Assembly: GCA_038727135.1 (NCBI GenBank)
Contig: JAVYWL010000004.1
Span: 92,644-156,643 of the forward strand
Direction of reading: 5' to 3'
DNA from: Candidatus Bathyarchaeia archaeon
GTDB taxonomy: Archaea > Thermoproteota > Bathyarchaeia > Bathyarchaeales > Bathycorpusculaceae
Length of the DNA: 64,000 nt
The notes beneath the pieces were generated by a model. The model was given only the letters and a program-made list of their open reading frames with translations. It did no database searches and was not told the DNA's origin. Shown here one piece after another: positions 50,236 to 58,907 of the stretch. The position numbers were made by a program, and so were the translations under genes. The stretch's first letter is position 1. Each line of letters opens with the position of its first letter.

Positions 50236-51033
50236 CTATTTGAGCCTCGCATTTTTAAGTGCGTCCACGCATGGGCAACTTTTCCGCTCAACTGGTAAAG
50301 CCTTAACTGTTTCAATTAAAAGTTGCTCTATTTTTGGCTGAACTTTCCGCGAGATGTCAAAAACCTCTTTTGGCGTTAAACGCTCCTGCAAGCCCGCAGC
50401 CATATTAGAAACAAAACAGACACACGCATAACAAATTTCAAGCTCCCGAGCAAGCACAGCTTCCGGCAAGCCAGTCATGCCAACAACGTCAAAGCCCAAG
50501 CGTCTAAACATCTCAATTTCAGCAGGAGTTTCAAAACGCGGTCCCTCAGTACAAACAAGAACCGCACTAGAACAAACAGTTAAACCAAGCTTTTCAGCAG
50601 TTTTAATAAGGGTCCCGCGAATTTCTGGACAGTAGGGTTGGGAGACATCAATGTGAGTGACTGGCGCTTCATCATAAAAAGTTGTTGGACGCGTCTTGGT
50701 AAAATCTGCAAAATCATGAGGAACAACGATGTCGCCAGGCTTTAAACTCTTGTTTATCGCGCCAACTGCGTTAACGGCTATTATCCTTTCCACGCCCACC
50801 TCATGTAGCGCATAAATGCTCGCTCTATAATTCACCTTATGCGGAGGAACCGAATGCTCAAGGCCATGCCTTGGAAGAAAAACTAGGTTTTTGCCGTCAA
50901 TTTCTCCAATAAATAACGGCGGAGGAACTCCATATGGAGTTCCAACAATAACCTTTTCAAAGTTTGCGAAAAGTTTCTCAAAACCTGTTCCGCCGATAAC
51001 CGCAATTTTAGCTTTCTTCTTTAAGCTCCTCAA
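50236..51033 (-). CDS. mtnP: Methylthioadenosine/methylthioinosine phosphorylase
   Basis: IGGTG, TPYG, LPRHG..H..PPH, EGPRFET.AE, VGMT..PE..LAREL, NMAAG. Confidence 0.9.
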   Translation of the reverse strand: MRSLKKKAKIAVIGGTGFEKLFANFEKVIVGTPYGVPPPLFIGEIDGKNLVFLPRHGLEHSVPPHKVNYRASIYALHEVGVERIIAVNAVGAINKSLKPGDIVVPHDFADFTKTRPTTFYDEAPVTHIDVSQPYCPEIRGTLIKTAEKLGLTVCSSAVLVCTEGPRFETPAEIEMFRRLGFDVVGMTGLPEAVLARELEICYACVCFVSNMAAGLQERLTPKEVFDISRKVQPKIEQLLIETVKALPVERKSCPCVDALKNARLK

Positions 51034-52195
51034 CTTTCTCTTCAGACTCCTTGAAAAATCCTTTTGCAGACCTGTGAATCACAACAATAATGAGCAGTGA
51101 GGCAACGCCTAATAAAATGCCAATAACAATTGTGAATATTAAAACTTCATAGCCAATTTTTGGGTTTATTAAAATGTTGGAGGCAGATTCAAGGATTTGC
51201 CTAGTCCACCCAACAAGGATTATTAGGGCTGCGTTGCGCAAAAGCCTCACGTCCCTTTCAAAGTACCAGCGGATAGCCCTTCCAGTTAATGCCACACAAA
51301 TTCCGATAATCACGAGGTCTTTTGAATCCATAATAAAGTAGCCCGCGATTTGCGGTGAAAAAATGTTCAACCAGTTGGACAAATCTATGCCAAGAGACGC
51401 TATTGCCTCAGAAGCCGAAGTATATCCTAGATAAAAGCCAATAGCCATACACAATATTCCTGCAAGCATGGCAAATGCGGAAATCTGCACTGGGAGAGGC
51501 GGCGGAGAATACTCCTTCACCCAAACATAGGCTTTCTTAAGCATCTTGTCAACTCCGAAGCCCTTAACGAACATGTATGTTCCCAGAACGATTATGAAAG
51601 CCACTAAGTAGTAGTGGACTAAACCGAATATGGCTAGGATGCCGAGGATTAGGAATAGGAGTCCTGGCAAACCCAGGGCTATGCGGGAGTACTTGGGGTT
51701 TTCCAAAATCATTTTGAAATATTTTGAGAATAGGGCTGCTGTTTCCTCTATGGATTCGCTGTGCTTAACAACTATTCTTCTCACGGACGAGACTGGCACC
51801 CTTGACTCTATTAGGGGTAATACTGCCTCGTCTGAATAGCCGTCCGTTACGAGAATGACCTCGTTTGCTGGGAAAACCTTCAGAACTTCACCTAATTCGG
51901 CAACGATTTTTCTGTCAGCGCTGACGCTTCCAAGCTCTGAACCAGACACTGTTGCGACTTCAAAGACTTCGTTTGGGTTGTTCTCGCTGAGGAGGCGGTC
52001 ATAAACGCGTATGGCTTCAAACATGGCGTTGGCGTCTGGCTCTTCAGGGTCTTTTAGAGCTAGGGAAACAGCGGCGTTGAGGGTTTTTTCCCTCCCAATT
52101 AGTGGTGTTTTTATTTCTGCTTTTGTCGTTAGGTCTCCGTCTCTATCAACACAAAGAATTAGAATTCTCTTTTGTGCCTGCTCCTGTTCAGTCAT
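51008..52195 (-). CDS. DUF373 family membrane protein
   Basis: LCVDRDGD, DPEE.DAN, VTDG.SDE, S.SIE.T; C-terminal TMs. Confidence 0.9.
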   Translation of the reverse strand: MTEQEQAQKRILILCVDRDGDLTTKAEIKTPLIGREKTLNAAVSLALKDPEEPDANAMFEAIRVYDRLLSENNPNEVFEVATVSGSELGSVSADRKIVAELGEVLKVFPANEVILVTDGYSDEAVLPLIESRVPVSSVRRIVVKHSESIEETAALFSKYFKMILENPKYSRIALGLPGLLFLILGILAIFGLVHYYLVAFIIVLGTYMFVKGFGVDKMLKKAYVWVKEYSPPPLPVQISAFAMLAGILCMAIGFYLGYTSASEAIASLGIDLSNWLNIFSPQIAGYFIMDSKDLVIIGICVALTGRAIRWYFERDVRLLRNAALIILVGWTRQILESASNILINPKIGYEVLIFTIVIGILLGVASLLIIVVIHRSAKGFFKESEEKVEELKEES

Positions 52196-52238
52196 CTGTT
52201 CTCTTCCAATTCAATATTCATGTGAAGTTACTTTAAGT

Positions 52239-53105
52239 TTATGCTAATCCTTTTTCGGCTAAAACTTTAAATTCTTCCCAAGTCAGCTTTTCGCCACGCC
52301 TCAGCTTTTCAAGGGCTTGCTTTTCTACGCTTTCTAAGAGCTTTTCTTCGGCTTCCTTTCGCTTTTTCTCCTCTTCAGCGGAAATTTCCTCTTTAAAACT
52401 CCTAATCTCATCCATGATTTTCGTTATTTCCGTTTGAAGGGCTTTCATCTTCTCCCTTGTTTGAAGGTAACACCTATGAAAATGGTCAGCCTCATCTTTG
52501 ATCTTCTTGGCTTCTTCAACTTTTTTCAACATTTCCGCGTGGATTTGTTGGCTTTTCTCTGCATTTTCCATAATGGTTTTGTGGCAAAGCTCAACTCTCG
52601 CTTGAAGTGCCTTAACTTCAGCCTTTAACTCAATTCTTTTCTGGTTTAGCTGCTCGATTTTCTTGTGGATGCTGATTTGGCTTTCCAACTCCTTAACCTG
52701 TTCAACTAATTTTTTCTCCTCTTTCAGGCTTAAGGGCGTGGTTTGAATTTTCCATTCGAGGCTTTCAACATCATTTTCTAAGGCTTTGAGGCTTCTTTTC
52801 GGCTTCTTTTTCGTGAGCGGCTCAAGTTCTCTCCTTAAACTTTTAAGCTCAGCGATTTTTTGGGCTATTTCCGCCTTGATTCGGCTTCTCTGCCTTTTTA
52901 ACTCCTTAACCTTCTCATTTATCTCGTCCCTTGTGTTTTTCAGTCTTAAAATTTCGCTGCGCAAGTTCTTTAACTCTTGGTTTAGCGTGTCTCTTTTTTC
53001 CGCATAATTCATGGCTTCGGCTTCTAGGGTGCTTCTCTGTCCTTTTAAAATGGAGAGTTTTTCGCTTAATTCCTTAATTTTTTGTGTTTTTTCGCCTTGT
53101 GGCAA
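52239..53105 (-). CDS. Archaeal coiled-coil protein (COG1340-like)
   Basis: Continuous heptads; LEWKIQT.PL...EEK; GEKLT.EE. Confidence 0.85.
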   Translation of the reverse strand: MPQGEKTQKIKELSEKLSILKGQRSTLEAEAMNYAEKRDTLNQELKNLRSEILRLKNTRDEINEKVKELKRQRSRIKAEIAQKIAELKSLRRELEPLTKKKPKRSLKALENDVESLEWKIQTTPLSLKEEKKLVEQVKELESQISIHKKIEQLNQKRIELKAEVKALQARVELCHKTIMENAEKSQQIHAEMLKKVEEAKKIKDEADHFHRCYLQTREKMKALQTEITKIMDEIRSFKEEISAEEEKKRKEAEEKLLESVEKQALEKLRRGEKLTWEEFKVLAEKGLA

Positions 53106-53904: not shown

Positions 53905-54600
53905 TTATTCTAGGATTATTCTTGCATCCACTGTTTTTGCTCCTTTCTCATAAACCATTATTGGGTTTAAGTCTAGCTCCTTAATTTCTGGATGTTCTGA
54001 AACAAGCCTGGAAGTTTTTAGGAGAATCTGCACTATGGCGTTTATGTCTGCTGGTGGCATCCCCCTATAACCCTTCAATAGCGGATAAGCCTTAACCTCG
54101 CCAATCATTTCTCGGGCTTCTTCCTCTGTTATTGGCACAATTCTGAAAGTGACGTCTTTCAAAACTTCCACGAAGACTCCTCCAAGCCCAAACATCAAGG
54201 CGTGGCCAAACTGGGGGTCTTTTATAGCTCCAACAATGACTTCTGTTGATGGGGGCGCCATCTCCTGCACGAGCACGCCCAAAATTTTTGCATCTTTCTT
54301 GTGCGTTTTCACGTTTTCCATTATTTGTTTGTAGGCTTTTCGCACTTCCCCAGCATTTTTAAGGTTAAGCATAACCCCTCCAACGTCGGACTTATGAAGG
54401 ATGTCTGGCGAAACAATCTTTAAAACGACTGGATAACCTATTTCCTCTGCAAACTTGACGGCTTCAGCTTCGCTTTTTGCCAGTTTAAACTGGGTAACTG
54501 GAATGTCATACTCCACGCAGACGCTTTTGGCTTCCATCTCCAACAAGTGTTTCCTTCCAGCTTTGCGAACCTCTTCGAATATGCTTTTCACTTTGCTCAT
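53905..54600 (-). CDS. Acetate--CoA ligase (ADP-forming) beta subunit
   Basis: GYPVVLKIVSPDILHKSDVGGV, FGLGGVFVE...D, ELDLNP, VDAR. Confidence 0.93.
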   Translation of the reverse strand: MSKVKSIFEEVRKAGRKHLLEMEAKSVCVEYDIPVTQFKLAKSEAEAVKFAEEIGYPVVLKIVSPDILHKSDVGGVMLNLKNAGEVRKAYKQIMENVKTHKKDAKILGVLVQEMAPPSTEVIVGAIKDPQFGHALMFGLGGVFVEVLKDVTFRIVPITEEEAREMIGEVKAYPLLKGYRGMPPADINAIVQILLKTSRLVSEHPEIKELDLNPIMVYEKGAKTVDARIILE

Positions 54601-54659
54601 GCTGTCTCGCCCTTATGAATTGTACAGTTTAGTTGTTTTCCAAAATTAAATCCTTTGGT

Positions 54660-54791
54660 TCAACGTTTTCGCCATATGTTGTATGGACACTGGTTCCAAC
54701 AGTAACGGCTACCCTTATACTCACAGTTTTTACACTCCGGCATGTCAAAAAGTCTAGGCTTTCTGCTTCCGCCAGAATCACCTTCAGACAA
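54660..54791 (-). CDS. Unannotated 43-aa Cys-rich microprotein
   Basis: TTG start; MSEGDSGGSRKPRLFDMPECKNCEYKGSRYCWNQCPYNIWRKR; CxxC-x7-CxxxCP. Confidence 0.6.
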   Translation of the reverse strand: MSEGDSGGSRKPRLFDMPECKNCEYKGSRYCWNQCPYNIWRKR

Positions 54792-54833
54792 AGGTTTCTC
54801 CAAAAAACTATAGTTTTTGAAAGTTAAAAGTGT

Positions 54834-54911
54834 TGGTGGGGCTGCCCGGATTTGAACCGGGGTCCCGAGCGCCCGAGGCTCAGAGCCTAGACCAAGCTAG
54901 CCGACAGCCCC
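54834..54911 (-). tRNA. tRNA-Pro(CGG), no intron, CCA encoded
   Basis: GGGGCTG/CAGCCCC acceptor stem; anticodon arm TGAGC-CTCGGGC-GCTCG; T arm CCCGG-TTCAAAT-CCGGG; ends ACCA. Confidence 0.95.
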
Positions 54912-55019
54912 TTTGGTTTACGTTGCCACATTTTAGTTTTGTACAAGTTTAATAAAGGTGTTTTCTTAACCTTTAAACCCTTATCCGGGGCTATAACTAT
55001 CCAAGTGTTAGGGGGAGAT

Positions 55020-57224
55020 GTGAAAGGCTTGTCTAGTCAGCATCAGCGTCTGCGGGGAATCCGCGTTTTGAAGGCAGTTTCTTCAACTGTTAGGCTTAAC
55101 ATCCTAAGCGCTCTTTTTGACCGTGGTCCACTTTCCTATACTGAGCTTATGAGCCTTTTAAAAATGAATCCTAGCAGGGATGCTGGGCGCTTTGCCTATC
55201 ACCTCAAATTTTTGCTTAAGGCGGATTTGATTGAGGCTGATGTAGAGTCCAAAAAGTATCGCCTAACAGATTTGGGAAAGATGGTTATCGACGTGGCTGA
55301 GGAAATTGAGAAGCGAAGTTTAAGAGCCCAAAGAATCCTTGTGAGAACGTCCCGCTTCACCCTAGAAGAGTTCGATGCCACAAAAATTGCAAATTCTCTC
55401 ATTAAGGAGGCTGGAATGCCCCCAGAACTCGCCCAGAAAATAGCAAAAGAGGCTGAAAAACGCCTTTTAAAGGCTAGGACCCGCTATTTAACGGCTCCAC
55501 TGATAAGAGAGGTTGTTAACGGAATCCTCATTGAAAGGGGGCTGGAGGAGCACCGCCACAAACTCACCCGTCTTGGGCTTCCAGTGCATGACGTTTCAGC
55601 CTACCTTATGAGGAGCAAAGCCACCGTCGATGCGTCTTCTATCTGCGAAGATTTTGGGGGAAATGTCCTTGAAGAGTACACGCTTTTAAGTGTGCTACCA
55701 AGGGATATCGCGGACGCATATTTATCGGGTGAGCTTCACCTACACGGCTTAGGCTACTGGATATTAAAACCAAGCGAAATAATCCACGACCTAAGATTCT
55801 TTATGAAAAACGGCTTAAGCCCAAACCCCGCAAACATTTCTCAACCATCTATAAAGCCGCCGAAAAGTTTCGAATCCGCCCTAAGCCTAATCCTCAACGT
55901 TCTTCTGCAAGCATCAAAGGAGATCGAGGGAACACAAGTGCTTGAATACTTCAACATCTTTTTTGCTCCTTTTTTGAAAAGCTTGGAAAAAGCTGCAGTC
56001 AAAGAGGCTTTGAGGCTCTTCGTCATCAGCATCGCCCACCACGTTGACGCCTCCATAAATCTCGAGTTGACAATTCCAGAGTTTTTGGTGGATAAGCCCG
56101 CCATAGGCTCGGCAGATGGCTGTTATGGCGACTATATTAGCGAAAGCCAGCTTTTAGCCTCTCTGGTACTTGAAGTTTATGAGGAGGAAAGCGCTGAAAA
56201 GCCGCTTCTAAACCCAAAACTCATAGTTAAAATTCGCCCGGAAACTTTCAGTGACAGCGTGGCGGCTGACATTCTGTTAAGGGCACATCGCCTAGCCTCA
56301 GAGAGGGGCATCCCATACTTCGCAAACCTTTCCGGCAAAAATGGACAATACACGGTTTTCTCCCCTTCAGGAAGCGTTCTCAAAGCAGATTTCAAAGAAG
56401 ACTGGGAACTTGATACACTGCGCACAGGCGTTTTGGGAATCGCAACCGTTAACTTGCCCAGAATAGTCCTCGAATGCGGCAAAGACGAAAGAAAACTTTT
56501 CACGCTTTTAAGAGAGAGACTTGAAATGGCAGCACGAGCCCTAGAAATAAAGAACAGAGCCCTAAAACAGCGAGGAAGAAACTTTCTTCCCTTTTTGACA
56601 CAATCAGCCAACGGCGACCAATACTTCAGAGTCGAAAATGCTGCACGCTTAATAAATATGGTTGGACTGAAAGAGGCTTCAGAAACCCCAAGCGGAAAAA
56701 GCTTATACGAAGACGAGAAAGCCCAAAGGTTCGCATCCGAAATCATAAAAAACGTTTTAGAATTCATGCCAAAAAGTGGAAAACGCGAAAGAAGACTTCT
56801 TCCATCCGCTTTGCCGTGCGCCGACGCCTCAGAAAGGTTGGCAAAACAAGACATTGAAAGATTCGGCATTGCAAAGGTTCGCTTCCAAGGAACAAGGGAA
56901 AAACCCCACTACTCATCATACAGTCGAATAAACCTCCAAAACTGGGAGACGCAATCAAAAATTTTAGCTATTGAAAAAAGACTTTATGAGCCGCTCGTTG
57001 GCGGAAACCCAACAGTCATGGAGCTTGGAAACGCTGAATACACGCCAGAAATGCTTCTCTCATTCACGAAAAAGCTTATTGAAGACTACAGACTAGAGTT
57101 TTTCACGTACAACCGCGACCTAACCCACTGCAGCCAGTGCCGCAAAAGCTGGTTTGGAAAGCTTCAAAAATGTCCCATCTGTGGTTCTGTAGGCACGTTA
57201 GTTGTGTTCACACGTTACCAATAG
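55020..57224 (+). CDS. ArsR-type winged helix + ATP cone + catalytically degenerate class III ribonucleotide reductase (NrdD-like)
   Basis: wHTH (RLNILSAL...GRFAYHLKFL...YRLTDLG), ATP cone (FDATKIANSL...IREVV), NrdD core (DWELDTLRTG, VNLPRI) and Zn ribbon; start likely GTG 55020. Confidence 0.85.
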   Translation: MKGLSSQHQRLRGIRVLKAVSSTVRLNILSALFDRGPLSYTELMSLLKMNPSRDAGRFAYHLKFLLKADLIEADVESKKYRLTDLGKMVIDVAEEIEKRSLRAQRILVRTSRFTLEEFDATKIANSLIKEAGMPPELAQKIAKEAEKRLLKARTRYLTAPLIREVVNGILIERGLEEHRHKLTRLGLPVHDVSAYLMRSKATVDASSICEDFGGNVLEEYTLLSVLPRDIADAYLSGELHLHGLGYWILKPSEIIHDLRFFMKNGLSPNPANISQPSIKPPKSFESALSLILNVLLQASKEIEGTQVLEYFNIFFAPFLKSLEKAAVKEALRLFVISIAHHVDASINLELTIPEFLVDKPAIGSADGCYGDYISESQLLASLVLEVYEEESAEKPLLNPKLIVKIRPETFSDSVAADILLRAHRLASERGIPYFANLSGKNGQYTVFSPSGSVLKADFKEDWELDTLRTGVLGIATVNLPRIVLECGKDERKLFTLLRERLEMAARALEIKNRALKQRGRNFLPFLTQSANGDQYFRVENAARLINMVGLKEASETPSGKSLYEDEKAQRFASEIIKNVLEFMPKSGKRERRLLPSALPCADASERLAKQDIERFGIAKVRFQGTREKPHYSSYSRINLQNWETQSKILAIEKRLYEPLVGGNPTVMELGNAEYTPEMLLSFTKKLIEDYRLEFFTYNRDLTHCSQCRKSWFGKLQKCPICGSVGTLVVFTRYQ

Positions 57225-57235
57225 GTCCTACAGGC

Positions 57236-58168
<933 letters not shown>

Positions 58169-58223
58169 TTAGACAAGCAACGGGTTCTGCTTAAATAACT
58201 TTTTATTCACATTTCGCGAGGCA

Positions 58224-58276
58224 GAAAACTAGAGGGGGGCTATCAATTTAGCGGTTCACACGCTGTTAAAATTGAC
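58224..58276. repeat. Dispersed ~55-bp element, copy 2 (pyrB/pyrI divergent spacer)
   Basis: GAAAACTAGAGGGGGGCTATCAATTTAGCGG...CTGTTAAAATTGAC; imperfect hairpin. Confidence 0.6.
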
Positions 58277-58348
58277 CGAGAAACGCTAATCGATTAAAAC
58301 CTTTTATTCCTGCGCCGACAATACCGTTCTAAAAGGTGGATAAGCCTC

Positions 58349-58819
58349 ATGAGCGAAAGCGAAACAATGCTTTATGTCTCAAAAATTAAGGATGGAACCG
58401 TTATAGACCACATAACTGGCGGACACGCCTTAGACGTCATCAAGATTTTGGGGATAACTGGCAAGGAAAAGCGCATAATTACCATAGCCATCAACGTTCC
58501 AAGCAAACGGTTTAAGGTTAAAGACATCGTCAAAATTGAGGGTAGAGAACTAAAACCAGAAGAAGTTCATAAAATTGCCCTCTTGGCGCCCCATGCAACC
58601 ATAAACATCATAAGAAACTATAATGTTGTCGAAAAACAGCGAGTTAAGCTTCCAAGCGTTATTGAGGGCATTGTTAAATGTGCAAACCCCGCCTGTATAA
58701 GCAACAGCAACGAGCCAGTTCAATCCAAATTTTATGTTAAAAGTGAGGAACCCCTAATCTTGAAATGCCACTACTGCGGCTATATCATGGAGAAAAGCGA
58801 TGTCTTGAAGCAGTTTTAG
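58349..58819 (+). CDS. pyrI: Aspartate carbamoyltransferase regulatory subunit
   Basis: I.DGTVIDHI, KDIVKIE, APHATINII, CANPACISN, CHYC. Confidence 0.97.
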   Translation: MSESETMLYVSKIKDGTVIDHITGGHALDVIKILGITGKEKRIITIAINVPSKRFKVKDIVKIEGRELKPEEVHKIALLAPHATINIIRNYNVVEKQRVKLPSVIEGIVKCANPACISNSNEPVQSKFYVKSEEPLILKCHYCGYIMEKSDVLKQF

Positions 58820-58885
58820 CCTTCTAGACGATATTCGGTTTTTGAGATAATGCTTATATCGTAAGATGTGATATTTCGAAATTAG

Positions 58886-58907
58886 ATATGTCAATAAAAA
58901 GACATAT
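58886..58907. promoter_or_regulatory. Inverted repeat, candidate operator
   Basis: ATATGTC-AATAAAAA-GACATAT perfect 7-bp arms upstream of the 58946 gene. Confidence 0.4.

What the first reader, a model, noticed from the sequence alone, without database searches (positions are those of the whole stretch)
55020..57224. Winged-helix transcription factor built on a 'dead' class III ribonucleotide reductase
Seen: an uninterrupted ~734-aa ORF with an ArsR-like wHTH, an ATP cone and a full archaeal NrdD-like barrel with intact Zn ribbon. By-eye comparison with methanogen-type NrdD shows all three radical-chemistry sites gone. The thiyl-radical MGCR loop reads FSPSGS, the N-terminal active-site Cys position reads KPSEI, and the protein stops at ...VFTRYQ where RITGY (glycyl radical) should be. 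No NrdG activase is adjacent. Established: NrdD needs these residues, and ATP cones are allosteric (d)NTP sensors (also in NrdR). Inference: coordinated loss with an intact frame and a DNA-binding head suggests a pseudoenzyme repurposed as a nucleotide-pool-sensing regulator, or a regulatory partner of a real NrdD. It converges on pyrB, and pyrG is in the same window.
Basis: partly seen in the sequence, partly recalled or inferred. Interest (0 to 1): 0.85.

Follow-up and report, generated by a model that had tools for sequence, protein, structure and literature searches.

The report
Dead ribonucleotide reductase turned DNA-binding regulator
This archaeal gene encodes a whole anaerobic ribonucleotide reductase that has lost its catalytic residues and gained a DNA-binding head, and it belongs to a large, conserved and apparently undescribed family that probably regulates the genes for making DNA and RNA building blocks.

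Summary
Window 55020-57224 (+) encodes a 734-aa protein with an ArsR-like winged helix, a cone domain and an NrdD barrel with a four-Cys zinc ribbon. It lacks the strand-1 Cys, the thiyl Cys, the NxN substrate flap and the glycyl-radical domain.

It is not a decaying allele:
- dN/dS against the same-genus ortholog is 0.10.
- Sense-strand RNA reads exist.
- The architecture recurs across Bathyarchaeia and in 279 of 401 sampled genomes of the phylum. Three amoA-bearing genomes have no real NrdD or NrdG.
- None of 93 winged-helix-bearing homologues keeps the catalytic set.

The window's genome has a separate nrdR-nrdD-nrdG operon and a class II reductase.

The gene sits beside pyrB/pyrI in 49 of 70 loci, in several arrangements. 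It sits beside nrdD or class II reductase genes in 9 of 70.

Best reading (about 0.6): an enzyme-derived transcription regulator of nucleotide supply, working like NrdR. DNA binding, the ligand and the targets are all inferred, and no operator was found. The canonical substrate-site contacts are gone, so any sensing would have to use the cone or the dimer-interface effector site.

Nine literature searches found no description. I rate it a new variant of a known kind, interest 0.77.

The parts
55020..57224 (+). Gene for the winged-helix / cone / dead-NrdD protein (734 aa from GTG 55020; TTG 55029 is an alternative start; the ORF is open from TTG 54939).
55065..55292 (+). ArsR-like winged helix-turn-helix, residues 16-91. 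The model shows helices 4-19, 23-35, 40-46 and 55-67, a hairpin at 71-82 and a helix at 84-101. There is no Cys in residues 1-100.
   Evidence: Pfam DUF7347 and HTH_5 above their cut-offs; secondary structure of the AlphaFold2 model; sequence.
55341..55544 (+). Cone domain, residues 108-175, a variant with a 'V-R-T-S-R' hairpin in place of the usual 'V-x-K-R-D-G'. A conserved linker 'YRHKLTRLGLPV' follows.
   Evidence: Pfam ATP-cone 27.1 bits against cut-off 25.8. The same variant occurs in the closest active NrdDs. No PDB cone is found by sequence.
55638..57212 (+). NrdD-type alpha/beta barrel, residues 207-731, without catalytic residues.
   Evidence: Pfam NRDD 231 bits. The 26 best listed Foldseek PDB matches are class III reductases, target-normalised TM 0.57-0.75. 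Conservation table.
55776..55778 (+). Codon of E253, at the position of the strand-1 active-site Cys of NrdD.
   Evidence: Cys at this column in 14 of 14 active NrdDs and 0 of 93 family members.
56367..56375 (+). Codons of S450-G451-S452, the remnant of the M-G/C-C thiyl-radical loop. Residue 452 is the thiyl Cys position.
   Evidence: The position varies in the near family: F 39, C 26, Y 15, S 14, G 5, I 1, E 1, with 20 of 121 not matched by the pattern.
57129..57182 (+). Four-Cys zinc ribbon (C704, C707, C718, C721). The protein ends 13 residues later, with no glycyl-radical loop.
   Evidence: Invariant in alignments A1 and A2. Tails of 10-16 residues after the last CxxCG in 112 of 121 near relatives.
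54965..54978 (+). Promoter-like element CTTAACCTTTAAAC (putative BRE/TATA), 42 nt before GTG 55020. A G-rich ribosome-binding-like run lies at 55011-55017.
   Evidence: Sequence. A related (c)TAAc-TTTAAAC block sits at a similar distance in most of the 28 upstream regions extracted from same-family loci. The promoter role is inferred.
57236..58162 (-). pyrB (aspartate carbamoyltransferase catalytic chain), convergent with the gene, 11-nt gap.
   Evidence: The adjacency is conserved in 30 of 30 close loci and 11 of 20 distant Bathyarchaeia loci.
58349..58819 (+). pyrI (regulatory chain), divergent from pyrB.
54834..54911 (-). tRNA-Pro (CGG) directly upstream. It bounds the promoter region of the gene.
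   Evidence: tRNA-like sequence is also seen upstream in many same-family loci (printout).

Best explanation
The gene encodes a transcription regulator that evolved from a complete class III ribonucleotide reductase catalytic subunit.

Origin (inferred from the tree and gene order). An archaeal nrdD with its cone domain gave rise to a copy that gained an N-terminal ArsR-type winged helix. In five distant Bathyarchaeia loci an active-looking nrdD lies directly downstream of the gene, which would fit a tandem duplication (not tested). The copy lost the radical chemistry: both Cys residues, the glycyl-radical domain and the NxN flap.

Proposed mechanism (inferred, not shown). The dead barrel still dimerises as NrdD does and carries two winged helices. 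Binding of (d)NTP effectors to the cone and/or to the dimer-interface specificity site changes the geometry or oligomeric state. That switches DNA binding at promoters of nucleotide-supply genes: the ribonucleotide reductases nrdD and nrdJ, pyrB/pyrI, and probably its own gene. In function it would stand in for NrdR, which is rare in archaea. In design it resembles enzyme-derived sensors fused to a winged helix, such as Bacillus PurR (recalled, not from a call).
For: Shown by calls.
1. Architecture and fold.
2. Catalytic marks are absent in this protein and across the family. Zero of 93 winged-helix-bearing homologues of 600-850 aa have all three marks, against 14 of 35 without the head. Cys at the strand-1 position occurs in 0 of 93 against 14 of 14 active NrdDs. 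The two flap Asn residues are kept in 13% and 6% against 100%.
3. Purifying selection: dN/dS is 0.10 overall and 0.11 for the barrel, against the same-genus ortholog. The frame is intact in the 150 best places listed from 301 Bathyarchaeia genomes, at 36-81% identity.
4. Breadth: the 207-aa head-plus-cone module matches 279 of 401 sampled genomes of the phylum, including 56 of 56 in family f35. Three of 3 tested f35 genomes carry archaeal amoA and have no canonical NrdD and no NrdG above cut-off.
5. Single origin: in a FastTree of 82 barrels, all 14 active NrdDs fall in one clade (support 99) that holds none of the 47 winged-helix rows.
6. Neighbours. pyrB is convergent in 30 of 30 close loci and 11 of 20 distant Bathyarchaeia loci. 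pyrB/pyrI are adjacent in 8 of 20 loci from other families of the phylum, in three different arrangements. An active-looking nrdD lies directly downstream in 5 of 20 loci. A class II reductase lies directly downstream in L049, L066 and L069, and divergent in L067. The upstream neighbours of the window are conserved only within the genus.
7. Expression: 29 reads of one metatranscriptome, with strand consistent with sense transcripts of the gene and of pyrI.
8. The head and the cone-linker are the most conserved parts: dN/dS 0.06 and 0.08, and the invariant columns of A2.
Against: - No DNA binding, ligand binding or target has been tested.
- No shared operator emerged from upstream regions of the gene, pyrB-pyrI, nrdD or nrdJ. 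Only promoter-like BRE/TATA blocks are conserved.
- The contacts that hold the NTP substrate in active NrdD are lost: NxN flap, second His and Asp of HxHD, and the Glu of the P-A-E loop (roles from passages of PMC11226230; counts). The barrel therefore cannot sense NTPs in the canonical pocket.
- Whether the specificity site survives was not resolved.
- The cone hairpin has Thr-Ser where PcNrdD uses Lys7-Arg8 on the (d)ATP phosphates. The closest active NrdDs share this variant.
- Housekeeping genes (NAC, PUA-domain protein, PAN) also recur next to the gene in 8 of the 20 loci, and NAC once more in L058. Part of the synteny may therefore be passive. A convergent pyrB is not an operon partner.
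- The window's genome also has NrdR next to nrdD.
Confidence: 0.6

Rival explanations
1. A bifunctional protein: the barrel has acquired a new, non-radical catalytic or nucleotide-processing activity, and the winged helix only autoregulates or tethers it (as in BirA or PutA; recalled, not from a call).
For: A set of barrel residues stays highly conserved without the radical machinery: N478 95%, R606 87%, D611 89%, E552 85%, Y631 82%, G662 86%. The barrel is under purifying selection (dN/dS 0.11). A few distant members keep a Gly in a vestigial C-terminal loop (P0140, P0150).
Against: The conserved residues are a subset of those also conserved in active NrdD, so they may be structural. Thirty-two of the 92 listed positions conserved in active NrdDs are lost, among them the substrate-site contacts (NxN flap, HxHD, P-A-E loop). 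No new conserved motif specific to the family was seen in the pocket. There is no partner enzyme or activase in the neighbourhood.
Confidence: 0.12
2. A non-catalytic partner of a real reductase: it forms heterodimers or complexes with active NrdD (or the class II enzyme) and tunes its activity. The winged helix would serve protein contacts or localisation.
For: It keeps the NrdD fold and presumably the dimer surface. An active nrdD lies directly downstream in 5 of 20 distant loci. The window's genome has a canonical NrdD.
Against: It is the only NrdD homologue found in 5 of 5 tested Bathyarchaeia genomes that gave a single match; these have class II reductases. The same holds in 4 of 5 tested genomes of other families, 3 of them with amoA and none of the 4 with NrdG above cut-off. 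A class II partner is not excluded. The best-conserved part is a DNA-binding-type domain.
Confidence: 0.1
3. A general DNA-binding or chromatin-associated protein without a nucleotide-sensing role. The dead barrel would be only a bulky dimerisation scaffold.
For: The gene is near-universal in several archaeal classes and sits among housekeeping genes (NAC, PAN, TFE, Trm56) in 8 loci. No operator was found. There is a weak NCBIfam match to Sso10a-type chromatin proteins (E 0.0095, far below cut-off).
Against: A 630-aa cone-plus-barrel module conserved at dN/dS about 0.1 is costly for a mere scaffold. Adjacency to reductase and pyrB/pyrI genes recurs in different arrangements. The cone and linker are as conserved as in active NrdDs.
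Confidence: 0.1
4. A decaying or mis-sequenced nrdD allele (pseudogene).
For: Loss of the catalytic residues. Automatic annotation calls it 'anaerobic ribonucleoside-triphosphate reductase'.
Against: The frame is intact in this genome and in the 150 listed places. dN/dS is 0.10. The same losses occur in all 93 winged-helix homologues. The protein is transcribed. A separate canonical nrdD exists.
Confidence: 0.01

Closest known systems
NrdD, catalytic subunit of class III (anaerobic, glycyl-radical) ribonucleotide reductase
   Same: Cone domain, linker, ten-stranded barrel fold and C-terminal four-Cys zinc ribbon. The best sequence and structure matches are NrdDs. The cone is the same 'VRTS' variant as in the closest active archaeal NrdDs. 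The active-site Asn of the 'NLPR' motif is kept (N478, 95%).
   Different: No strand-1 Cys, no conserved thiyl Cys, no glycyl-radical loop, no NxN flap, a degenerate HxHD motif and a lost P-A-E loop. It has an extra N-terminal winged helix. It scores below the NCBIfam equivalog cut-off. It occurs in genomes without NrdG, three of them carrying amoA.
NrdR, the bacterial repressor of reductase genes (zinc ribbon plus ATP-cone)
   Same: A DNA-binding module joined to a cone domain, and genes often next to reductase genes. NrdR senses ATP/dATP through the cone and is rare in archaea (passages of PMC9110341). The proposed role here is the same.
   Different: The DNA-binding module is a winged helix, not a zinc ribbon. 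A whole 530-aa dead reductase barrel is attached. The cone lacks the Lys-Arg hairpin pair. There is no sequence relationship beyond the cone. The window's genome has a true NrdR as well.
ArsR/SmtB-family winged-helix regulators
   Same: The head matches HTH_5 and has helix-helix-helix-helix-hairpin-helix order. The best PDB sequence match is HlyU, but it is weak (E 0.35).
   Different: No metal-binding Cys in the head. The match is far below the NCBIfam metalloregulator cut-off (26.4 against 55). The putative sensor is a fused enzyme relic, not a metal site.
Enzyme-derived sensors fused to a winged helix, e.g. Bacillus subtilis PurR (winged helix plus inactive phosphoribosyltransferase fold binding PRPP). 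Recalled, not from a call.
   Same: The design principle: an inactive relative of a nucleotide-metabolism enzyme serves as the ligand-sensing domain of a regulator of nucleotide-metabolism genes.
   Different: An unrelated fold and ligand. Here the relic is a radical enzyme about five times larger, and the ligand is unknown.

Membership tests
NrdD (class III ribonucleotide reductase, catalytic subunit) | NrdD barrel fold and sequence family | tested here: met
   Pfam NRDD 231 bits. The 26 best listed Foldseek PDB matches are all class III reductases, E 3.5e-27 to 2.6e-19.
NrdD (class III ribonucleotide reductase, catalytic subunit) | Score above the curated equivalog cut-off (TIGR02487) | tested here: not met
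   248.7 bits against a cut-off of 326.35.
NrdD (class III ribonucleotide reductase, catalytic subunit) | Thiyl-radical Cys at the tip of the finger loop (Cys416 in PcNrdD, PMC11226230 passages) | tested here: not met
   Ser452 in this protein. The position varies in the family.
NrdD (class III ribonucleotide reductase, catalytic subunit) | Second active-site Cys on the first barrel strand (Cys171 in PcNrdD) | tested here: not met
   Glu253 here. Cys in 0 of 93 family rows and in 14 of 14 active NrdDs.
NrdD (class III ribonucleotide reductase, catalytic subunit) | C-terminal glycyl-radical loop (RxxGY type) | tested here: not met
   The protein ends 13 residues after the last zinc-ribbon Cys. 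Pfam profile positions 538-562 are unmatched.
NrdD (class III ribonucleotide reductase, catalytic subunit) | NxN flap and HxHD motif that hold the substrate (PMC11226230 passages) | tested here: not met
   The flap Asn residues are kept in 13% and 6% of family rows. This protein reads R198 and K200 there, and 'HLHG' for HxHD.
NrdD (class III ribonucleotide reductase, catalytic subunit) | Structural zinc ribbon | tested here: met
   C704, C707, C718 and C721 are invariant in A1 and A2.
NrdD (class III ribonucleotide reductase, catalytic subunit) | Partner activase NrdG | tested here: not met
   The only NrdG2 match above cut-off lies beside the canonical nrdD on contig C1. Four of 5 genomes of other families carry the protein without any NrdG above cut-off.
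ArsR/SmtB winged-helix regulators | Winged helix-turn-helix of the ArsR type | tested here: met
   HTH_5 26.7 bits (cut-off 22) and DUF7347 34.4 (cut-off 27.6). Matching order of helices and hairpin in the model.
ArsR/SmtB winged-helix regulators | Metal- or metalloid-sensing site; curated subfamily score | tested here: not met
   No Cys in residues 1-100. NF033788 scores 26.4 bits against cut-off 55.
ArsR/SmtB winged-helix regulators | Sequence-specific DNA binding as a dimer | not testable with these tools
   No operator was found. Needs EMSA or DAP-seq.
ATP-cone domain | Sequence family | tested here: met
   27.1 bits against cut-off 25.8, profile positions 3-72 of 88, so marginal. Aligns with the cones of active NrdDs.
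ATP-cone domain | Basic hairpin pair on the nucleotide phosphates (Lys7, Arg8 in PcNrdD, PMC11226230 passages) | tested here: not met
   Thr110-Ser111 here. The same holds in the closest active NrdDs.
ATP-cone domain | Binding of ATP/dATP | not testable with these tools
   Needs ITC or analysis of bound nucleotide.
NrdR | N-terminal zinc ribbon directly followed by an ATP-cone, about 150-170 aa | tested here: not met
   Different architecture. A true NrdR-like ORF of 165 aa lies on contig C1. It was named from its sequence and position and was not scanned against a family library.

The most novel reading that the evidence does not exclude
This is the missing archaeal master regulator of DNA-precursor supply. 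A whole ribonucleotide reductase subunit was fossilised into an allosteric sensor. It still reads dNTP balance through the old specificity and cone sites of an NrdD-type dimer, and passes that signal to two winged helices. In this way it would coordinate the reductase genes (of whichever class) with pyrimidine synthesis (pyrBI) across Bathyarchaeia, ammonia-oxidising archaea and some Asgard-related lineages. It would be a functional replacement for NrdR that arose independently.
Probability: 0.35. Interest if true: 0.88.

Novelty: new variant of a known kind. Interest (0 to 1): 0.77.

Why it matters
**What it could explain.** How archaea control ribonucleotide reductase and nucleotide-synthesis genes is largely unknown, and NrdR is rare in archaea (PMC9110341, passages). 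This family is close to universal in two abundant groups. It was found in 56 of 56 sampled genomes of family f35, where 3 of 3 tested genomes carry amoA, and in most sampled Bathyarchaeia families.

**What it would add.** If it is a nucleotide-sensing regulator, it gives a testable candidate for that control. It would also be a striking case of a radical enzyme recycled whole into a transcription factor.

**Annotation.** Public databases name these proteins 'anaerobic ribonucleoside-triphosphate reductase'. That wrongly implies class III reductase capacity, for example in metabolic reconstructions of aerobic ammonia oxidisers and of Bathyarchaeia that have only a class II enzyme.

Tried and rejected
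**Operator search.**
- Upstream regions of the gene in 28 same-family loci show only a conserved BRE/TATA-like block.
- pyrB-pyrI spacers of 19 loci show only two promoter-like blocks.
- The spacers between the gene and nrdD or nrdJ, and the genome's own nrdJ and nrdR upstream regions, share no motif that I could defend.
- A TTGTACAA palindrome sits upstream of the window gene, and similar palindromes sit before nrdD in L055 and L056. It is not conserved upstream in the other same-family loci: 1 further TGTACA among the 28 regions, inside coding sequence. Dropped.

**GATC inverted repeats.** Repeats of the form (C/T)GATC-N2-6-GATC(G/A) lie upstream of the gene in 3 of 4 f35-family loci. I chose the pattern after seeing the data, the spacing varies, and the window has none. 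It is a lead only.

**Homodimer of residues 1-205 (complex prediction).** No verdict (score 0.14, mark 0.42).

**Structure searches by sequence.** The cone alone finds no solved cone. The head alone finds only a weak HlyU match (E 0.35).

**RNA runs.** No listed holder is on record as RNA in the index. Three of the four raw RNA runs laid gave no reads.

**Literature.** Nine full-text searches found no description of a winged-helix/NrdD-like protein or an NrdD pseudoenzyme. Subscription journals are not covered, and supplementary files were not opened.

**Specificity site.** I could not map it onto this protein with confidence. E375 may correspond to the Mg-binding Glu290 of PcNrdD, but this rests only on counting from the end of an alignment. 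I do not claim it.
Full report
**1. The observation**

The ORF listing shows one uninterrupted frame, 54939-57224 (+). From GTG 55020 it gives the 734-aa protein P0001. TTG 55029 is an equally plausible start. The 99%-identical database protein has 731 aa, the Atlas record starts at residue 4, and a G-rich run lies at 55011-55017.

Pfam finds four domains:
- DUF7347, residues 16-91, and HTH_5 (ArsR), residues 24-72, both above cut-off.
- An ATP-cone, residues 108-175, just above cut-off (27.1 against 25.8).
- NRDD, residues 207-731, at 231 bits. Only profile positions 11-537 of 562 are matched.

The NCBIfam NrdD equivalog scores 248.7 against a cut-off of 326.35.

An AlphaFold2 model built on 57 homologues is confident (pLDDT 88.9, pTM 0.81). 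Its 26 best listed PDB matches are all class III reductases, with target-normalised TM of 0.57-0.75. Other glycyl-radical enzymes follow.

**2. The catalytic residues**

The genome (1.55 Mb, 7 contigs, 94.7% complete) has a canonical nrdD on contig C1 (663 bits over the whole Pfam profile). It is preceded by an NrdR-like ORF and followed by the only NrdG2 match above cut-off. A class II reductase with a cone lies about 50 kb upstream of the window on the same contig.

Aligned with that canonical NrdD (25% identity, E 1e-40):
- 'GPYCV' becomes 'KPSEI'.
- 'MCCR' becomes 'SGSV'.
- The four zinc-ribbon Cys residues are kept.
- The chain stops 13 residues after the last Cys, where the enzyme continues with 'YSRVVGY'.

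So are 'no adjacent NrdG', the convergent pyrB and pyrG in the window.

**3. A family, not an accident**

The word-index search lists 120 proteins of 60-99% identity and 675-756 aa. 118 of them carry DUF7347 as well as NRDD. They are named either 'anaerobic ribonucleoside-triphosphate reductase' or 'ArsR family transcriptional regulator', mostly from Bathyarchaeia.

In 301 sampled Bathyarchaeia genomes, 276 have a match at E <= 1e-20. The 150 best places span nearly the whole query at 36-81% identity without stops. One family (f19, 62 of 71 with a match) has only weak matches (1e-21 to 1e-53), the level of a canonical NrdD.

The exhaustive search of 50% representatives gives 1926 hits at E <= 1e-3 and 382 at E <= 1e-30.

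I aligned the 150 best representatives and the locus proteins to a family profile. I sorted those of 600-850 aa by three marks: a Cys in the strand-1 segment, a Cys-Cys or Cys-Arg pair in the thiyl loop, and a C-terminal RxxGY-type motif. The result:
- 0 of 93 rows with a full winged helix pass all three marks.
- 14 of 35 rows without it pass.
- 49 rows outside the length range were left out (fragments and intein-sized proteins).

**4. What was lost and what was kept**

Ninety-two positions from residue 100 onwards are at least 85% conserved in the 14 active NrdDs. In the 93 family rows, 35 of these are kept (at least 70%) and 32 are lost (under 30%).

Lost:
- The strand-1 Cys (0 of 93).
- The two Asn residues of the NxN flap (13% and 6%).
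- The second His of HxHD (3%).
- The P-A-E loop (29%, 2% and 19%).

Passages of the Prevotella copri NrdD paper (PMC11226230) give these elements their roles:
- Cys416 is the radical initiator.
- Cys171 lies on strand 1.
- Gly711 carries the radical.
- Asn114 and Asn116 of the flap bind the substrate.
- HxHD and the 577-581 loop hold its triphosphate.

Kept:
- The Asn of 'NLPR' (95%).
- The zinc Cys residues (85%).
- Nearly all conserved positions of the cone and linker.

The thiyl position itself is free to vary. In the near family (121 proteins) it is F 39, C 26, Y 15, S 14, G 5, I 1 and E 1, with 20 not matched by my pattern. The tail after the last CxxCG is 10-16 residues in 112 of 121.

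More distant members (35-45% identity, about 750-780 aa) keep a tail of about 35 residues that still resembles the glycyl-radical domain, usually with the Gly replaced. Examples are '...grssatyaplelw' and '...srlsskylp'. A few keep a Gly (P0140, P0150). This looks like stepwise decay of the domain, completed in the window's lineage.

The cone is a variant with 'V-R-T-S' where the genome's own NrdD has 'V-R-K-R'. The closest active archaeal NrdDs have the same variant, so it was inherited and is not a family novelty.

**5. Origin**

I built a FastTree of 82 barrel sequences, with the head and cone cut off and every second family row dropped. All 14 active NrdDs lie in one clade with support 99. 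That clade also holds 16 unclassified rows, several of which carry two cones. It holds none of the 47 winged-helix rows.

The few 'other' rows among the family are N-terminally incomplete records. FastTree joins long branches readily and the root is not inferred. I therefore read this only as compatible with a single origin.

In 5 of 20 distant Bathyarchaeia loci the gene is directly followed, on the same strand, by an active-looking nrdD with a cone, 'RPFCQxHD', 'QCCR' and 'wsritgyy'. In L064 a glutaredoxin-like ORF lies between them. This fits an origin by tandem duplication.

**6. Selection and expression**

Against the same-genus ortholog (81% identity), NG86 dN/dS is 0.10 overall. By part it is 0.06 for the head, 0.08 for cone and linker, 0.11 for the barrel and 0.07 for ribbon and tail. 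dS is about 1.07, close to saturation.

Four raw metatranscriptome runs were laid on 54500-58900. Three gave no reads. One gave 29 reads, 9 at 99% identity or more and 20 at 95-99%. Over the gene and over pyrI the first mates all lie on the minus strand. Over pyrB they lie on the plus strand. In the usual stranded libraries that is sense transcription of each gene. The numbers are small, and the reads at 95-99% may come from close relatives.

**7. Distribution beyond the class**

The head-plus-cone module (207 aa) matches 279 of 401 sampled genomes of the phylum at E <= 1e-8:

| Family code | Genomes with a match |
|---|---|
| f35 | 56 of 56 |
| f41 | 30 of 32 |
| f48 | 24 of 24 |
| f43 | 17 of 17 |
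| f39 | 15 of 17 |
| f42 | 8 of 8 |
| f44 | 0 of 23 |
| f50 | 0 of 15 |
| f45 | 0 of 12 |
| f49 | 0 of 5 |

Three of 3 tested f35 genomes encode archaeal AmoA. Their only NRDD match is this protein, much degraded at 37-56 bits, and none has NrdG above cut-off.

Source names on cluster members of the representatives P0190 and P0194 read Nitrososphaerales or Thaumarchaeota. A Ranarchaeia protein (P0283) has the same three domains. Atlas clusters add Promethearchaeota and, as leads only, Nanobdellota.

Five of 5 Bathyarchaeia genomes that gave a single match have class II reductases and no canonical NrdD. The protein therefore does not depend on a real NrdD.

**8. Gene neighbours**

- pyrB is the convergent downstream neighbour in 30 of 30 loci of the window's family. 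It lies within 3.5 kb, always convergent, in 11 of 20 loci of other Bathyarchaeia families (one is cut by a contig end). The window's upstream neighbours (ATP-grasp protein, Thg1) are shared only with the same genus.
- In 20 loci that I picked by family code from the rest of the phylum, before seeing their neighbours, pyrB and/or pyrI adjoin the gene in 8. There are three arrangements: as in the window (L079, L083, L084), pyrB divergent upstream (L073, L074), and pyrI convergent (L075, L077, L078).
- A class II reductase follows the gene directly in L049, L066 and L069, and is divergent in L067.
- Together, pyrB/pyrI adjoin the gene in 49 of 70 loci and a reductase gene in 9 of 70. Related genomes are not independent, so I make no statistical claim.
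- Housekeeping genes (NAC, a PUA-domain protein, PAN, TFE, Trm56) also recur beside the gene in 8 loci. Part of the pattern is therefore old gene order.

**9. Mechanism**

Shown:
- The architecture.
- The loss of chemistry.
- Selection and expression.
- Independence from NrdD/NrdG.
- The neighbourhood.

Inferred:
- The protein dimerises through the NrdD interface and the ArsR-type helices.
- It binds DNA.
- Nucleotides bound at the cone and/or the dimer-interface specificity site switch that binding.
- The targets include reductase and pyrBI promoters.

The canonical substrate pocket is an unlikely sensor, because its contacts are gone. I could not settle whether the specificity site survives. 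No operator was found. GATC-type inverted repeats upstream of the gene in 3 of 4 f35-family loci are a post-hoc lead.

**10. Comparison with what is known, and novelty**

It is a relative of NrdD but fails the defining catalytic features and the curated cut-off, so it should not be filed as NrdD. It would work like NrdR, but it is not a member of that family. Its head is ArsR-like without a metal site. The design (a dead nucleotide-metabolism enzyme as the sensor of a winged-helix regulator) is known from PurR-type regulators (recalled, not from a call).

Nine full-text searches found nothing on such a protein.

**Verdict.** It is a new variant of a known kind, interest 0.77.

Noticed in passing
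G000 contig C1, about 189300-192650 (locus L001: 639-1136, 1144-3279, 3224-3964): The genome has an NrdR-like ORF (165 aa, zinc ribbon plus ATP-cone) directly upstream of a canonical nrdD-nrdG pair. NrdR is described as rare in archaea (PMC9110341, passages). This NrdD has 'MCCR' and a C..H..C..C ribbon, unlike the archaeal NrdDs that sit next to the family gene elsewhere. It may be a transferred operon.
   Followed up: partly
Proteins P0124, P0128, P0131, P0140, P0150 and loci L045-L063: Distant family members keep a C-terminal tail of about 35 residues that resembles the glycyl-radical domain, mostly with the radical Gly replaced. A few keep a Gly (P0140 'srvngmyrp', P0150 'klmgpyrs'). These look like intermediate stages of decay.
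   Followed up: partly
Proteins P0185, P0186, P0189, P0211, P0229, P0233, P0250, P0251: A separate group has two ATP-cones plus an NrdD barrel and no winged helix. Several lack the strand-1 Cys or end before the zinc ribbon. They may be a second kind of inactive NrdD, or split or intein-interrupted genes.
   Followed up: partly
L062 4896-9899 (-); G185 and G067 places: In some genomes the family gene has an open frame of 1096-1681 aa, and several representatives of 1150-1700 aa match in two to five stretches. They probably carry inteins or other insertions.
   Followed up: no
L066 4678-4693 and 4710-4725; L067 7871-7886; L069 4728-4743 and 7096-7108: Perfect inverted repeats built on GATC lie upstream of the family gene in three amoA-type genomes, and one lies upstream of the class II reductase gene. 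In L066 the repeat TGCGATCTAGATCGCA occurs twice. The pattern was chosen after seeing the data and the spacing varies.
   Followed up: partly
window 54834-54911 (-): tRNA-Pro (CGG) lies directly upstream of the gene. The same tRNA-like sequence precedes the gene in many loci of the same family.
   Followed up: partly
window 57236-58819: pyrB and pyrI are transcribed divergently from a 186-bp spacer rather than as one operon. Two promoter-like blocks in the spacer are conserved across the family: CTTAAATAACTTTTTAT and AAAACCTTTTAT. A 10-bp palindrome, TAATCGATTA, lies just before the pyrI block in the window.
   Followed up: partly
window 51008-53105 (-): A DUF373 membrane protein and a DUF7121 coiled-coil protein of unknown function lie upstream, next to a Thg1-type tRNA-His guanylyltransferase.
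   Followed up: no
L061 6586-8466 (+): In one Bathyarchaeia locus the gene is followed by a 627-aa protein with bacterial TSP3 repeats and a weak match to the calcium-binding domain of binary-toxin B / protective-antigen proteins. This is a domain resemblance only.
   Followed up: no
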